A stretch of DNA of 64,000 nt from Octopus vulgaris (lineage: Eukaryota). Made by a program: the position numbers. The stretch spans positions 40,114,001 through 40,178,000 of the forward strand of contig OX597823.1 of the NCBI GenBank assembly GCA_951406725.2, given 5' to 3'. Positions 4,661 to 30,189 of this stretch are shown piece by piece (position 1 is the stretch's first letter; every line of letters begins with the position of its first letter).

Positions 4661-7600
4661 CTAAGCAATAAAGAGTTTAGCAACGAATTGCCTTACCACA
4701 TACCGAATTTAGAAATAGCAGTCAAAGAGTTATAGCTATTTCTTCTACTAAAAAGGGAGATCTCAGTAAAAACAGCAATTTGAAGGCAGACACAAACAGG
4801 TAAGAGAGGATGAATTGACGGCAATCTATCATACAATTTTAAGTTATCTACGGACGTACGTTTCGAAATCAAGTTTTTAGGAAAGGATAAGAATTAAATA
4901 TTAAATAATTCTATCTTACCAAAACCTCTTTTCTCTTCAGCGTAGAATACTATAATCATAAATGATTATATATTGAATTTTGAGATACTAGAAGGCACCA
5001 ACTCAACTCAGTATCAGAGCGAGCTAGAATCCGCAACTAGTATCACTAAATTCAATGCTTGAATGAAAAGATTGTATCACCAGCCCCTTCCCACCCGCGT
5101 GTAGCCAAAACAAGATGCTGTGGTCATCTACTGAGATAAAATATGGTTATCCGTAATAATGAAGGGTGAAATTAATTAATTTGGAATAATTATCAATAAC
5201 ACCAAGTAGTCTTCGGCATGTAAAAGCCTCATTCGAGGAGAATTTAAGTAATACTAAGCAATAAAGGGTTTAGCAACGAATTGCCTTACCACATACCGAA
5301 TTTAGAAATAGCAGTCAAAGAGTTATAGCTATTTCTTCTACTAAAAAGGGAGATCTCAGTAAAAACAGCAATTTGAAGGCAGACACAAACAGGTAAGAGA
5401 GGATGAATTGACGGCAATCTATCATACAATTTTAAGTTATCTACGGACGTACGTTTCGAAATCAAGTTTTTAGGAAAGGATAAGAATTAAATATTAAATA
5501 ATTCTATCTTACCAAAACCTCTTTTCTCTTCAGCGTAGAATACTATAATCATAAATGATTATATATTGAATTTTGAGATACTAGAAGGCACCAACTCAAC
5601 TCAGTATCAGAGCGAGCTAGAATCCGCAACTAGTATCACTAAATTCAATGCTTGAATGAAAAGATTGTATCACCAGCCCCTTCCCACCCGCGTGTAGCCA
5701 AAACAAGATGCTGTGGTCATCTACTGAGATAAAATATGGTTATCCGTAATAATGAAGGGTGAAATTAATTAATTTGGAATAATTATCAATAACACCAAGT
5801 AGTCTTCGGCATGTAAAAGCCTCATTCGAGGAGAATTTAAGTAATACTAAGCAATAAAGGGTTTAGCAACGAATTGCCTTACCACATACCGAATTTAGAA
5901 ATAGCAGTCAAAGAGTTATAGCTATTTCTTCTACTAAAAAGGAGATCTCAGTAAAAACAGCAATTTGAAGGCAGACACAAACAGGTAAGAGAGGATGAAT
6001 TGACGGCAATCTATCATACAATTTTAAGTTATCTACGGACGTACGTTTCGAAATCAAGTTTTTAGGAAAGGATAAGAATTAAATATTAAATAATTCTATC
6101 TTACCAAAACCTCTTTTCTCTTCAGCGTAGAATACTATAATCATAAATGATTATATATTGAATTTTGAGATACTAGAAGGCACCAACTCAACTCAGTATC
6201 AGAGCGAGCTAGAATCCGCAACTAGTATCACTAAATTCAATGCTTGAATGAAAAGATTGTATCACCAGCCCCTTCCCACCCGCGTGTAGCCAAAACAAGA
6301 TGCTGTGGTCATCTACTGAGATAAAATATGGTTATCCGTAATAATGAAGGGTGAAATTAATTAATTTGGAATAATTATCAATAACACCAAGTAGTCTTCG
6401 GCATGTAAAAGCCTCATTCGAGGAGAATTTAAGTAATACTAAGCAATAAAGGGTTTAGCAACGAATTGCCTTACCACATACCGAATTTAGAAATAGCAGT
6501 CAAAGAGTTATAGCTATTTCTTCTACTAAAAGGGAGATCTCAGTAAAAACAGCAATTTGAAGGCAGACACAAACAGGTAAGAGAGGATGAATTGACGGCA
6601 ATCTATCATACAATTTTAAGTTATCTACGGACGTACGTTTCGAAATCAAGTTTTTAGGAAAGGATAAGAATTAAATATTAAATAATTCTATCTTACCAAA
6701 ACCTCTTTTCTCTTCAGCGTAGAATACTATAATCATAAATGATTATATATTGAATTTTGAGATACTAGAAGGCACCAACTCAACTCAGTATCAGAGCGAG
6801 CTAGAATCCGCAACTAGTATCACTAAATTCAATGCTTGAATGAAAAGATTGTATCACCAGCCCCTTCCCACCCGCGTGTAGCCAAAACAAGATGCTGTGG
6901 TCATCTACTGAGATAAAATATGGTTATCCGTAACCCTTCATTATTACGGATAACCATATTTTATCTCAGTAGATGACCACAGCATCTTGTTTTGGCTACA
7001 CGCGTGGAAGGGTGTGATCATCTTTTCATTCAAGCATTGAATTGATACTAGTTGCGGATTCTAGCTCGCTCTGATACTGAGTTGAGTTGGTGCCTTCTAG
7101 TATCTCAAAATTCAATATATAATCATTTATGATTATAGTATTCTACGCTGAAGAGAAAAGAGGTTTTGGTAAGATAGAATTATTTAATATTTAATTCTTA
7201 TCCTTTCCTAAAAACTTGATTTCGAAACGTACGTCCGTAGATAACTTAAAATTGTATGATAGATTGCCGTCAATTCATCCTCTCTTACCTGTTTGTGTCT
7301 GCCTTCAAATTGCTGTTTTTACTGAGATCTCCCTTTTTAGTAGAAGAAATAGCTATAACTCTTTGACTGCTATTTCTAAATTCGGTATGTGGTAAGGCAA
7401 TTCGTTGCTAAACCCTTTATTGCTTAGTATTACTTAAATTCTCCTCGAATGAGGCTTTTACATGCCGAAGACTACTTGGTGTTATTGATAATTATTCCAA
7501 ATTAATTAATTTCACCCTTCATTATTACGGATAACCATATTTTATCTCAGTAGATGACCACAGCATCTTGTTTTGGCTACACGCGGGTGGGAAGGGGCTG

Positions 7601-8112
7601 GTGATACAATCTTTTCATTCAAGCATTGAATTTAGTGATACTAGTTGCAGATTCTAGCTCGCTCTGATACTGAGTTGAGTGGGTGCCTTCTAGTATCTCA
7701 AAATTCAATATATAATCATTTATGATTATAGTATTCTACGCTGAAGAGAAAAGAGGTTTTGGTAAGATAGAATTATTTAATATTTAATTCTTATCCTTTC
7801 CTAAAAACTTGATTTCGAAACGTACGTCCGTAGATAACTTAAAATTGTATGATAGATTGCCGTCAATTCATCCTCTCTTACCTGTTTGTGTCTGCCTTCA
7901 AATTGCTGTTTTTACTGAGATCTCCTTTTTAGTAGAAGAAATAGCTATAACTCTTTGACTGCTATTTCTAAATTCGGTATGTGGTAAGGCAATTCGTTGC
8001 TAAACCCTTTATTGCTTAGTATTACTTAAATTCTCCTCGAATGAGGCTTTTACATGCCGAAGACTACTTGGTGTTATTGATAATTATTCCAAATTAATTA
8101 ATTTCACCCTTC

Positions 8113-8158
<46 letters not shown>

Positions 8159-8369
8159 GGTCCCGGGTTGAGTCGGGGTTAACCACAGTAAATAAGGTAC
8201 TCAATACATAGCAGAGTAAATTAATTTATTTTATAGAAGGAGCTTCTACAGGACTAGAACTGTTTCATTCAAAAGAAATCATCAGGAAGCTAGTCAGGAA
8301 GCTGACTAGCTTCCTGATGATTTCTTTTGAATGAAACAGTTCTAGTCCTGTAGAAGCTCCTTCTATAAG

Positions 8370-8443
<74 letters not shown>

Positions 8444-8842
8444 AGGTGCTTTCTTGTCTCCAGAAAAAGAAAGAATAAGCTATTTTGTCATTGATACCAT
8501 ATTAATTCTTGGGAATTATTGATTGCCTGGGATTATCTCACTTTCCCATTCAGAGTCAGTTGTAATTGCCACTGGGTATTTGTTTACTTTTCTCTCAAAA
8601 GAAACGAGATTTCAATAAATCAAAAATTTATCTTCTATGGTATCTAGTATATCTTTCTGCATTGCTGTTATCCAAATTCATGCCATTGACTACCTTAAGT
8701 TATTTCCCTTTGCAGCTACTTTTGGTTTCCTTTCCTCCTCCCTCCCGCCTTCCTACTCATTTCTCTTTCTGTCTCTCTCTTGATCTCCAAACACACACAC
8801 ACACACACACACAGACACACATATATGTTTGTGTATTTGTGT

Positions 8843-8890
<48 letters not shown>

Positions 8891-28300: not shown

Positions 28301-28369
28301 AGCTTTCAAATTTGAAAGCTTTTACCAAATTGTACCAAATTACTGGAGTCATTCTTGTTGCTTATTTTG

Positions 28370-28410
<41 letters not shown>

Positions 28411-28731
28411 ACACACACACACATATATATTTCATAAATGAATAAATATTCAAAAAAATATTTATGTAGATAATATGGCTGTCCTGGAAGGGACACTGTT
28501 ACTGTTTATTAATCTCAAGAAACATCGTTTCTAGCTGGCTATACATCATATTATCTGTGTCCTTATAGCCAGCTAGACACAACTTTTCTTTGGGCTAATA
28601 AATAGTTACAACGTCCCTTCCAGGACAGCCATATTATGTTGGAAATTAAATTTTACTTTAAAGAAATGTTACTGAATGTCTCTCTTGAGAGATTTAGAAA
28701 TAATACTATTTCTATTTATATAGATATTATT

Positions 28732-28783
<52 letters not shown>

Positions 28784-30146
28784 AGATGTACTCGCATAGC
28801 AAGTAATTTGATCTGAGATCGTGTGCTGAAATGAAAACAATTGCAGCGTGGAAGGTGTTTATAAGCCATTTAAGAAACACACAAAAGCCGTTCGATTCAC
28901 TTCAACATTTAAGTTTAATTTGTCAAAATATTTTCGTCGCTAAAATCCGCGACCTGTTCACTGACAAAAACCCGTGCTGCAGCACGATTTTAGCGACGAA
29001 AATATTTTGACAAATTAAACTTAAATGTTGAAGTGAATCGAACGGCTTTTGTGTGTTTCTTAAATGGCTTATAAACACCTTCCACGCTGCAATTGTTATA
29101 TATATATATATATATCTATAAATAAAAATTAGAAAAAAAACACCTTTATCAATTCAAAATGAACAATTAAATTACACCATCTAGAAAATTAAATATAATA
29201 GAAATATTAAAATTAAAATAACAATAATATACCGATGATTAAGTAAATTATTATAATTATTATTATTATTATTAATATTATATATATATATATATATAAG
29301 TTCAGCAAAACTTTAGATTCAAATGAATATGGTACTTGATTTAGATGCTCCAGAATTCTGTATAGTGTTATCCATAAAAATCCGTGGGGTGATTAGAATC
29401 AAAATAAGCAACAAGAATGACTCCGGTAGATTGGTACGATCGTTTCGTACTCTTAGAAGCACTCCGTCGGTTACGACGATGAGGGTTCCGGTTGATCCGA
29501 ATCAACGGAACAGCCTGCTCGTGAAATTAACGTGTAAGTGGCTGAGCACTCCACAGACACGTGCACCCTTAACGTAGTTCTCGGGGATATTCAGCGTGAC
29601 ACAGAGAGTGACAAGGCCGGCCCCTTGAAATACAGGTACAACAGAAATGGGAAGTAAGAGCAAGAGAAAGTTGTGGTGAAAGAGTACAGCAGGGATCCCC
29701 ACCATCCCCTGCCGGAGCCTCGTGGTGCTTTTAGGTGTTTTCGCTCAATAAACACTCACAACGCCCGGTCTGGGAATCGAAACCGTGATCCTATGACCGC
29801 AAGTCCGCTGCCCTAACCACTGGGCCATTGCGCCTCCACCGTTTCGTACTACATCATTTTATTAAATGTAAGTATTACAACAGTTTTAAAATGCTGAGCA
29901 CTCATCAGCCAATTATAGAGGTTTTCCATTAATACAAAAATTTTCATATCAAGTGGCAACATTATAGAGAAGGTAGATATATAGACAAAGATGTGGATTA
30001 AAATTTTAAGAACATTTGAGTTAGTGGAGCCCATCAACTGACTGACTAAGATTCGGTTGTTCCAGAATACTTACAACATTTAATAAAATGATGTAGTATG
30101 AAACGATCGTACCAAACTACCAGAGTCATTCTTGTTGCTTATTTTG

Positions 30147-30189
<43 letters not shown>

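What the first reader, a model, noticed from the sequence alone, without database searches (positions are those of the whole stretch)
4661..30150. Five HHR insertions from four unrelated families share one polarity rule: foldback with both RNA 3' ends facing outward into microsatellite
Seen: at 4661-8116, 8156-8373, 17487-18560, 28061-28373 and 29303-30150 the left part carries the ribozyme on the minus strand and the right part is an inverted copy on the plus strand. Flanks are (TA)n, or (TG)n on one side, and the unit sequences are otherwise largely unrelated. Inference: this 5-of-5 head-to-head layout fits both ends of a break in a TA tract priming reverse transcription on ribozyme-processed RNA, with the two cDNAs joined centrally (two-ended TPRT or twin priming). 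The GIY-YIG PLEs in this window, which also abut (TA)n, are plausible drivers. Inverted pLTRs are known for Penelope, but a multi-family, microsatellite-targeted non-autonomous system would be notable.
Basis: partly seen in the sequence, partly recalled or inferred. Interest (0 to 1): 0.8.

Follow-up and report, generated by a model that had tools for sequence, protein, structure and literature searches.

The report
Penelope-type ribozyme foldbacks in TA repeats
Short non-coding hammerhead-ribozyme retroelements in an octopus genome sit in TA microsatellites as head-to-head inverted pairs, which is the known insertion signature of Penelope-like retrotransposons and not a new system.

Summary
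All five loci are inverted pairs, minus-sense on the left and plus-sense on the right. Nine of their ten outer junctions abut (TA)n and one abuts (TG)n. They carry minimal type-I hammerheads that my descriptor finds 10-12 times, against 0.01-0.06 in shuffles; Rfam misses them.

I added two foldbacks: C3, a C-family relative, and E, which has no ribozyme. I also found three related insertions that are not foldbacks (F, F2 and a 5'-truncated Penelope endonuclease fragment). "5 of 5" therefore describes the polarity of foldbacks, not of every insertion.

The window is octopus. Head-to-head inverted copies, palindromic inverted junctions, an extra "tail" on one arm and TA-microsatellite targeting are all published hallmarks of endonuclease-bearing Penelope-like elements. 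A purified Penelope protein cuts and extends both DNA strands from internal RNA start sites.

"Ribozyme-processed RNA" is not supported: none of 11 scorable outer ends lies at a cleavage site. No Penelope reverse transcriptase lies in the window.

What may be new is the same architecture in non-coding, retrozyme-like units, and some junction detail.

The parts
4661..6933 (-). Family A, left arm: 3.84 tandem units of 592 nt, minus-sense. Hammerheads at 4940-4853, 5533-5446, 6125-6038 and 6717-6630. The outer end lies 192 nt past a cleavage site, at (TA)n 4629-4660.
6934..8117 (+). Family A, right arm: 2.0 units, plus-sense. Hammerheads at 7148-7235 and 7741-7828. It ends 289 nt past cleavage at a CCCTTCATTA motif, abutting (TA)n 8115-8155. 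The inner unit has a scrambled 23-nt patch plus 8-nt and 4-nt deletions. The centre is a palindrome with a 10-nt asymmetry.
8156..8297 (-). Family D, left (long) arm. Variant hammerhead at 8285-8247. The outer end is 91 nt past cleavage at (TA)n 8115-8155.
8302..8375 (+). Family D, right (short) arm. Variant hammerhead at 8314-8352. It ends about 21 nt past cleavage at (TA)n 8374-8441. A 4-nt loop separates the arms.
17487..18143 (-). Family B, left arm: 1.22 units of 539 nt. Hammerhead at 17715-17646. It ends about 159 nt past cleavage next to (TA)n 17436-17480.
18144..18560 (+). Family B, right arm. Hammerhead at 18202-18271. It ends 289 nt past cleavage at CCCTTATTAATTAA, abutting (TA)n 18559-18582. 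It has a 39-nt internal gap relative to the left arm. The centre is not palindromic.
21182..21302 (.). It is a C-family relative truncated before the ribozyme. The short minus-sense arm is 21182-21199 and the long plus-sense arm runs to 21302. The centre is a perfect palindrome and (TA)n lies on both sides. The short arm stops at the same place as in C and C2.
28062..28310 (-). Family C, left (long) arm. Hammerhead at 28270-28193. The outer end is 131 nt past cleavage at (TG)n.
28311..28373 (+). Family C, right (short) arm. It holds the second half of a 32-nt perfect palindrome, then a skip of about 95 nt to the 3' piece of the ribozyme. It ends 39 nt past the cleavage position at (TA)n 28372-28406.
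29299..30065 (-). C2, left (long) arm plus the central stretch. The ribozyme is split by a 389-nt SINE at 29452-29840, with its 10-bp target duplication at 29442-29451 and 29841-29850. The outer end is about 136 nt past cleavage at (TA)n 29279-29298.
30066..30150 (+). C2, right (short) arm. It holds the 3' half of the ribozyme (GAAA to the cleavage site at 30100-30111). It ends 39 nt past cleavage at (TA)n 30149-30177.
28779..29100 (.). E: a foldback bounded by (TA)n on both sides with no detectable hammerhead. The arms 28836-28947 and 28986-29097 match at 112 of 112 positions. The left arm carries a 57-nt one-sided tail, and the centre is a small palindrome.
959..3110 (-). F: a coding hammerhead element that is not a foldback. 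ORF 1713-3092, hammerhead 1092-1019. The 3' end lies 60 nt past cleavage at CCCTTCACTAA, abutting (TA)n 899-958.
21705..22683 (+). F2: a second F-type copy that is not a foldback. The ORF ends at 22200. The hammerhead relic at 22410-22484 has U4 changed to C. (TA)n lies at both ends.
3634..4628 (+). PLE2: a 5'-truncated canonical Penelope-like copy that is not a foldback. It keeps only the C-terminal GIY-YIG endonuclease (3634-3990) and the 3' region, ending at (TA)n 4629-4660.

Best explanation
These are non-coding, hammerhead-bearing derivatives of Penelope-like elements: pLTR-like or retrozyme-like units. They are copied in trans by a Penelope RT-endonuclease encoded elsewhere in the genome.

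Proposed sequence of events:
1. The enzyme cuts AT-rich DNA, here (TA)n tracts.
2. The freed DNA 3' ends prime cDNA synthesis at internal sites on an unprocessed, often multimeric element RNA.
3. Both strands of the break are extended in the same event.
4. The two antisense cDNAs meet and pair at a short palindromic word. This gives a head-to-head inverted pair whose RNA 3' sides abut the microsatellite.

Shown here:
- the anatomy and the polarity;
- formation of each foldback per insertion;
- ends that lie away from ribozyme cleavage sites.

Inferred:
- the identity of the enzyme;
- use of both strands;
- the way the arms are joined.
For: - Six of six HHR-family foldbacks (A, B, C, C2, C3, D) are head-to-head; C3's polarity is read from homology. 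Random polarity would give this with p = 1/64.
- Arms within one element share private variants, so each foldback is a single event.
- The outer ends fall at recurring internal sites. C, C2 and C3 short arms stop at the same place, 3 of 3. A, B and F share a CCCTT(C)AYTA end.
- A's non-motif arm has 3.84 units against 2.0 in the other arm, so it cannot be a plain copy of that arm.
- The B and C2 centres are not palindromic.
- Published: purified PAc cuts AT-rich DNA and extends both strands from two internal RT start sites, and ribozyme cleavage is dispensable (PMC11167929).
- Published: inverted 5'-truncated copies, a one-sided tail and (TA)n bias are Penelope hallmarks (PMC8557442; PMC3846280).
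- A canonical Penelope endonuclease fragment lies in the window.
Against: - All seven foldbacks pair one long terminus with one short one. Independent choice between two start sites would give this with p about 1/128, so a built-in asymmetry has to be assumed.
- The tails are 57-125 nt, not the published 30-40 bp.
- Five of seven centres (A, C, C3, D, E) are short palindromes, which fold-back self-priming explains equally well.
- No Penelope RT is present in the window, and sequence similarity to an autonomous partner is limited to one roughly 10-nt end motif.
- The sample is one 64-kb window. No empty sites and no reads were available.
Confidence: 0.45

Rival explanations
1. Single-strand target-primed reverse transcription followed by fold-back. 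The cDNA is primed from one nick at the element's true 3' site. Its 3' end then snaps back on a short palindrome and copies itself outward. The returning end is joined to the (TA)n by TA-rich microhomology. This is the self-priming idea already proposed for Penelope elements.
For: - Palindromic centres with 0-10 nt loops in 5 of 7 foldbacks (A, C, C3, D, E).
- Arms are near-identical: 112/112 in E, 73/74 in D, 47/49 in C.
- Every foldback has one long and one short terminus, 7 of 7, and the short ends fall in TA-like words. This is what one initiation and one termination would produce.
- PMC3846280 (passages) infers self-priming from palindromes at inverted junctions.
Against: - In A, the arm without the shared end motif is longer (3.84 against 2.0 units).
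- In B, the left arm holds sequence missing from the right arm, while the right arm carries the motif end.
- The B and C2 centres are not palindromic.
- The short arms of C, C3 and D carry a G that the long arm lacks.
- Three independent C-family short arms stop at one site, which looks more like a start site than a random stop.
Confidence: 0.35
2. Simple insertions came first. Later breaks in the fragile (TA)n flank were repaired by DNA-level fold-back, meaning intrastrand annealing and fill-in, which created the inverted copy. No reverse transcription is involved in forming the second arm.
For: - AT-rich microsatellites are break-prone (general knowledge).
- Palindromic centres and deletions near centres fit DNA fold-back repair.
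- Foldback E has no ribozyme, and a MITE-like palindrome at 28470-28637 also sits between TA tracts.
Against: - TA tracts lie on both sides, so breaks should give tail-to-tail as often as head-to-head. Observed: 6 of 6 head-to-head.
- The short-arm end recurs at the same site in 3 of 3 C-family copies.
- The layout matches the published Penelope insertion architecture.
Confidence: 0.1
3. Assembly artefact: chimeric or palindromic long reads created false inverted duplications.
For: - A's arms are about 99.5% alike over more than 1 kb, with an error-like scrambled patch near the centre.
- Published work notes that Penelope structures trouble assemblies (PMC8557442).
Against: - There are seven separate loci, each flanked by other sequence on both sides.
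- C2's arms differ at 4 of 58 positions, and one arm carries a SINE with a target duplication that the other lacks.
- Arms have different, reproducible ends.
Confidence: 0.03
4. The loci are DNA transposons of the MITE or foldback type with terminal inverted repeats that insert at TA.
For: - Inverted repeats and TA-rich flanks.
- No coding capacity: no ORF of 70 aa or more in A or C, and no Pfam family in the ORFs of B, C2 and D.
Against: - The termini are not inverted repeats of each other. One arm carries a 57-125 nt tail.
- The arms are tandem multimers of unequal unit number.
- The arms carry hammerheads with a fixed polarity.
- The inner junctions differ between C, C2 and C3.
Confidence: 0.02

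Closest known systems
Insertion architecture of endonuclease-bearing Penelope-like elements: pLTRs, an adjacent inverted 5'-truncated copy, a one-sided tail (PMC3846280; PMC8557442; both read as passages)
   Same: - Head-to-head inverted copies, and palindromes at the inverted junction.
- An extra stretch on one arm only.
- Partial tandems and 5' truncation.
- AT-rich or (TA)n targets.
- A hammerhead with a small palindromic helix III in the repeat.
   Different: - The units here encode nothing and are only 0.2-0.6 kb.
- The tails are 57-125 nt rather than 30-40 bp.
- Helix II is a long 50-68 nt hairpin.
- No target duplication can be read in the microsatellite.
Animal non-LTR retrozymes (PMC7229834, passages; preprint 10.64898/2026.07.22.740005, abstract and passages)
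   Same: - Non-coding, AT-rich, tandemly repeated units carrying a type-I hammerhead.
- Proposed to be Penelope-derived and mobilised in trans.
   Different: - Described units are 170-400 nt with canonical hammerheads and loop-loop contacts, arranged as direct tandems.
- In the two primary papers and the review PMC7761336, word searches for inverted arrangement and microsatellite targets found nothing on element structure. The only hits were a reference title and one unrelated sentence.
- Circular RNA was not testable here.
In vitro Penelope (PAc, green anole) reaction (PMC11167929, main text read)
   Same: - AT-rich cleavage and extension of both strands.
- RT starts at defined internal RNA sites downstream of the ribozyme cut.
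- Ribozyme cleavage is not needed.
   Different: - That system is a vertebrate autonomous element with two start sites 30-40 nt apart.
- Completed inverted products were not reported in the text I read.
L1 twin-priming inversions (recalled from memory; no paper opened)
   Same: Both ends of the target prime on one RNA, so the RNA 3' sides of both segments face outward.
   Different: - L1 products are inversions of one copy with poly(A) and target duplications.
- They are not duplicated arms with shared sequence, tandem units or microsatellite targets.
Paired minimal hammerheads on opposite strands in Schistosoma (PMC4209133, passage)
   Same: Two minimal hammerheads 100-700 bp apart on opposite strands.
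   Different: The passage I read gives only a mention. It does not analyse polarity, flanks or junctions.

Membership tests
Penelope-like element derivatives (non-autonomous) | Minimal type-I hammerhead with a short palindromic helix III in the repeat | tested here: met
   Descriptor hits: 10 strict and 12 relaxed, against means of 0.06 and 0.01 in 100 shuffles. Helix I and helix II differ between families but stay paired. Rfam models do not reach gathering score.
Penelope-like element derivatives (non-autonomous) | Adjacent inverted 5'-truncated copy, head-to-head, often with a palindrome at the junction | tested here: met
   6 of 6 HHR-family foldbacks are head-to-head. Among all 7 foldbacks (E included), 5 have palindromic centres.
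Penelope-like element derivatives (non-autonomous) | One-sided 30-40 bp tail | tested here: inconclusive
   All 7 foldbacks have a one-sided extension, but it is 57-125 nt long.
Penelope-like element derivatives (non-autonomous) | Insertion into AT-rich DNA or (TA)n | tested here: met
   13 of the 14 outer junctions of the 7 foldbacks abut (TA)n and 1 abuts (TG)n. TA tracts cover 2.1% of the window.
Penelope-like element derivatives (non-autonomous) | 3' end similar to an autonomous partner encoding RT plus GIY-YIG | tested here: inconclusive
   Only a roughly 10-nt end motif is shared by A, B and the coding element F. The window holds a Penelope endonuclease fragment but no RT.
Animal non-LTR retrozymes | Direct tandem units of about 170-400 nt with a canonical type-I hammerhead | tested here: not met
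   A and B are tandem, but their units are 592 and 539 nt. C and D are single units. The hammerheads are the minimal kind with a long helix II.
Animal non-LTR retrozymes | Expression as self-cleaved circular RNA | not testable with these tools
   No transcript data are available.
Rfam hammerhead families | Covariance-model score at or above gathering | tested here: not met
   0 matches at gathering score. The best is Hammerhead_3 at 15.3 bits against a cutoff of 48.5, at D.
MITE / foldback DNA transposons | Terminal inverted repeats reaching both ends, plus a fixed target duplication | tested here: not met
   One end of each element is a unique tail. No duplication is readable in the microsatellite.
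GIY-YIG endonuclease (F and F2 ORF, C-terminal 143 aa) | Significant match to the GIY-YIG domain | tested here: inconclusive
   Pfam E = 0.068, below the cutoff. hhalign against a Penelope endonuclease profile gives probability 24% and E = 8e-4. The Atlas gives a lead only. The AlphaFold model has pLDDT 48.5.

The most novel reading that the evidence does not exclude
These short non-coding foldbacks may be natural end-products of a Penelope integration in which a dimeric RNP primes on both strands of a cut (TA)n from two different fixed RNA start sites. If so, junction features could be read genome-wide to settle how Penelope elements build their inverted and tandem structures, which published work calls undefined. 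The features are one long and one short arm every time, a recurrent short-arm start, a single untemplated base at that junction, and palindromic joining.
Probability: 0.25. Interest if true: 0.6.

Novelty: new member of a known kind. Interest (0 to 1): 0.35.

Why it matters
How Penelope-like elements make their tandem and inverted structures, and why they favour microsatellites, is stated as open in the literature I read (PMC8557442, PMC11167929).

Small non-coding copies such as these are easy to align end to end. A genome-wide set could show which RNA positions serve as start sites, whether both strands prime, and how the arms are joined.

The loci also connect retrozyme-like ribozyme repeats to Penelope machinery at the level of insertion anatomy. 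For genome annotation, they explain many TA-flanked palindromes in octopus DNA that repeat finders may call MITEs or unknown.

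Tried and rejected
- Rfam at gathering score on the whole window gave 0 hits. The whole-window E-value list was swamped by microsatellite \"miRNA\" noise. Targeted scans of D and C gave no usable hammerhead hit.
- Folding energies of the five ribozyme regions are not unusual: z = -0.9, -2.0, -1.1, 0.04 and -0.25. 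Energy is therefore not used as evidence.
- Searches for longer relatives of the PLE2 endonuclease ORF and of the F-type domain found nothing. This is weak evidence only.
- The AlphaFold model of the F-type domain was too poor (pLDDT 48.5), so no fold search was run.
- ARAGORN finds no tRNA in the window, so the tRNA-like look of the SINE head rests on my reading only.
- I considered a composite master copy that moves as a whole. I rejected it because C, C2 and C3 have different inner junctions and arm lengths.
- I considered the RT pieces at 31010-32338 as a Penelope driver. No Penelope protein matches there, and by eye the sequence looks LINE-like.
- A genome-wide orientation test was not possible.
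- I did not see the supplements of the papers cited. These include Fig. S1-S2 of PMC11167929 and the supplementary files of PMC8557442, which may show junction detail relevant to novelty.

Full report
**What is there**

- A, 4661-8117. The left arm is 3.84 tandem units of 592 nt and the right arm is 2.0 units in the opposite orientation. Units differ by one or two substitutions. The exception is the inner right unit, which has a scrambled 23-nt patch and two small deletions.
- D, 8156-8375. A near-perfect hairpin: 73 of 74 positions match, with a 4-nt loop.
- B, 17487-18560. A 657-nt left arm (1.22 units of 539 nt) and a 417-nt right arm, 99.2-100% alike.
- C, 28062-28373, and C2, 29299-30150. 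Two copies of one family, 85-91% alike between copies.

**Are the ribozymes real?**

- Rfam finds none at gathering score. Targeted scans give at best 15.3 bits for D.
- I wrote a descriptor for a type-I hammerhead: helix I, CUGANGA, helix II, GAAA, a 6-nt self-paired helix III, UH. It gives 10 hits, against a mean of 0.06 in 100 dinucleotide shuffles.
- Allowing a mismatch at the base of helix II adds the D pair, giving 12 hits against 0.01.
- Allowing one core mismatch adds only F2.
- Helices I and II differ in sequence between families but stay paired.
- Folding energy alone is not significant.
- The form is a short palindromic helix III with a large helix II. Cervera and de la Pena described this minimal kind for Penelope-like elements (PMC4209133, passages).
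- In every foldback the left copy is minus-sense and the right copy plus-sense.
- The right arms of C and C2 keep only the 3' part of the ribozyme. C2's left ribozyme is split by a 389-nt SINE with a 10-bp target duplication. The other arm lacks that insertion, which argues that the structure is old and real.

**Flanks**

- Perfect TA tracts of 6 or more units cover 2.1% of the window. Only 3.5% of positions lie within 12 nt of one.

- C3, 21182-21302. A C-family relative truncated before the ribozyme. It has an 18-nt inverted arm on its left, a perfect palindromic centre and TA on both sides.
- E, 28779-29100. A TA-bounded foldback whose arms match at 112 of 112 positions, with no hammerhead.
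- Three related insertions that are not foldbacks:
  - F, 959-3110, minus strand. It has a 460-codon ORF, a hammerhead at 1092-1019 and its 3' end at (TA)n.
  - F2, 21705-22683, plus strand. Its ORF is 57% identical to F's over 143 residues, and its ribozyme has U4 changed to C.
  - PLE2, 3634-4628, plus strand. See "Organism and enzymes" below.
- "5 of 5" therefore describes the polarity of foldbacks. It does not mean that every insertion folds back.

**Organism and enzymes**

- F's ORF is 86% identical to a predicted Octopus sinensis protein, so the window is octopus.
- The ORF at 3610-3999 matches Pfam GIY-YIG (E = 1e-6) and has 1604 relatives at E of 0.001 or better.
- Of eight relatives 738-773 residues long that I scanned, 7 have a C-terminal GIY-YIG domain and 4 have a central RVT_1 domain. 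This is the canonical Penelope layout.
- tblastn with those eight finds only the endonuclease part in the window and no Penelope RT.
- The F-type domain is only weakly GIY-YIG-like.

**Anatomy that bears on mechanism**

1. Within one element both arms carry the same private variants. Helix III is CAATTG in both arms of C and CGATCG in both arms of C2. Each foldback is therefore one event from one RNA species.
2. No outer end lies at a ribozyme cleavage site. Distances past the cut are below, with sources. C3's long arm cannot be scored.

   | Element | Arm 1 | Arm 2 |
   |---|---|---|
   | A | 192 | 289 |
   | B | about 159 | 289 |
   | C | 131 | 39 |
   | C2 | about 136 | 39 |
   | D | 91 | about 21 |
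   | F | 60 | not a foldback |
   | F2 | about 199 | not a foldback |

3. Ends recur. The short arms of C, C2 and C3 stop at the same place. A-right, B-right and F end in a shared CCCTT(C)AYTA motif.
4. All seven foldbacks pair a long end with a short one, leaving a one-sided tail of 57-125 nt.
5. Five of seven centres (A, C, C3, D, E) are short palindromes with loops of 0-10 nt. In C and E the palindrome is followed by a skip in one arm. The B and C2 centres are not palindromic.
6. In C, C3 and D the arms differ only by a G in the short arm, 2-6 nt inside its TA junction. I cannot explain this.

**Comparison with what is known**

- Craig et al. 2021 (PMC8557442, passages) state three things about Penelope insertions. 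They are 5'-truncated partial tandems, often with an inverted 5'-truncated copy adjacent at the 5' end. A 30-40 bp tail sits at one end. Naiad and Neptune elements prefer (TA)n.
- Arkhipova et al. 2013 (PMC3846280, passages) describe inverted pLTRs and palindromes at the inverted junction. They note that head-to-head is the most frequent arrangement, propose a self-priming hypothesis, and report trans-mobilisation of a host gene by pLTRs alone.
- Frangieh et al. 2024 (PMC11167929, main text) worked with a purified Penelope protein.
  - It cuts AT-rich DNA and extends both strands.
  - It starts reverse transcription at two internal RNA sites, which define the tail.
  - It does not need ribozyme cleavage.
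- The retrozyme papers (PMC7229834, PMC7761336 and the 2026 preprint) describe direct tandems. The passages returned by my word searches say nothing about inverted arrangement or microsatellite targets as element structure.
- A 2026 Octopus vulgaris repeat paper does not mention hammerheads or this structure.
- A search for "Penelope-like" with "twin priming" returned three papers. Their titles and the starts of their abstracts do not concern Penelope structure.

**Verdict on mechanism**

- The polarity rule follows from any target-primed process: cDNA starts at the target junction on the RNA's 3' side. It is also the published Penelope pattern.
- I favour priming from both strands (0.45). The reasons are the biochemical precedent, the recurrent short-arm site, A's unequal arm lengths and two non-palindromic centres.
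- Single priming with fold-back (0.35) explains the palindromes and the strict long-plus-short pairing at least as well.
- DNA-level fold-back after insertion (0.1) predicts equal head-to-head and tail-to-tail. Observed: 6 of 6 head-to-head, p = 1/64.
- Assembly artefact (0.03) and MITE (0.02) fit poorly.

**Limits**

- This is one window with seven foldbacks.
- I did not see the supplementary figures of the cited papers.

Noticed in passing
959-3110 (-) and 21705-22683 (+): Two copies (F, F2) of a hammerhead-bearing element. Their ORFs share a conserved 143-residue C-terminal domain: 57% identity with no stops. The domain is only weakly GIY-YIG-like and no RT is visible. F's N-terminal part is asparagine/serine-rich and matches an Octopus sinensis protein annotated as 'myb-like protein I'.
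   Followed up: partly
28779-29100; related copy at 14510-14647: Foldback E has 112/112 identical arms, TA tracts on both sides, a 57-nt one-sided tail and a small palindromic centre. It has no hammerhead. A single-orientation relative lies at 14510-14647. E could derive from a ribozyme-less Penelope clade; I did not test this.
   Followed up: partly
28369, 21183, 8367 (short-arm junctions of C, C3, D): The two arms of each element are identical except for one base: a G in the short arm, 2-6 nt inside the (TA)n junction, where the long arm has T or A. This may be a single untemplated base added at the junction.
   Followed up: partly
8117 and 18560: The right arms of families A and B, which are otherwise unrelated, both end exactly 289 nt past their ribozyme cleavage site at a shared CCCTT(C)AYTA motif. 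In A the same motif also marks the inner junction of the foldback.
   Followed up: partly
29452-29840; also 48747-49069 and 55419-55583: A 389-nt SINE with a tRNA-like head (my reading; ARAGORN calls no tRNA) is inserted into C2's ribozyme with a 10-bp target duplication. Two further copies lie in the window, 92-97% and about 82-84% alike.
   Followed up: partly
28470-28637: An imperfect 170-nt palindrome (about 79% arm identity) lies between two TA tracts. It is MITE-like and has no hammerhead.
   Followed up: no
1-30200 versus 30201-64000: All hammerheads lie in the first 30 kb, and all foldbacks lie there except one inverted repeat without TA flanks at 39449-40242. The first 32 kb holds 29 of the window's 45 perfect TA tracts. 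Stretches such as 28061-30200 and 4629-8441 look like single TA tracts hit repeatedly.
   Followed up: partly
31010-32338 (+), 33106-33342 (+), 41198-41407 (-): Weak RVT_1 pieces that look LINE-like by eye, a DUF7083 piece, and an exon-like FAD_binding_2 match (E = 1.3e-10). The last probably belongs to a host flavoprotein gene.
   Followed up: no
14871-15063: A GC-rich 62-nt unit is repeated 3.1 times at 95% identity.
   Followed up: no
59567-60040 and 60454-60927 (-): Two open frames of identical length (157 codons) lie 887 nt apart, which suggests a tandem duplication.
   Followed up: no
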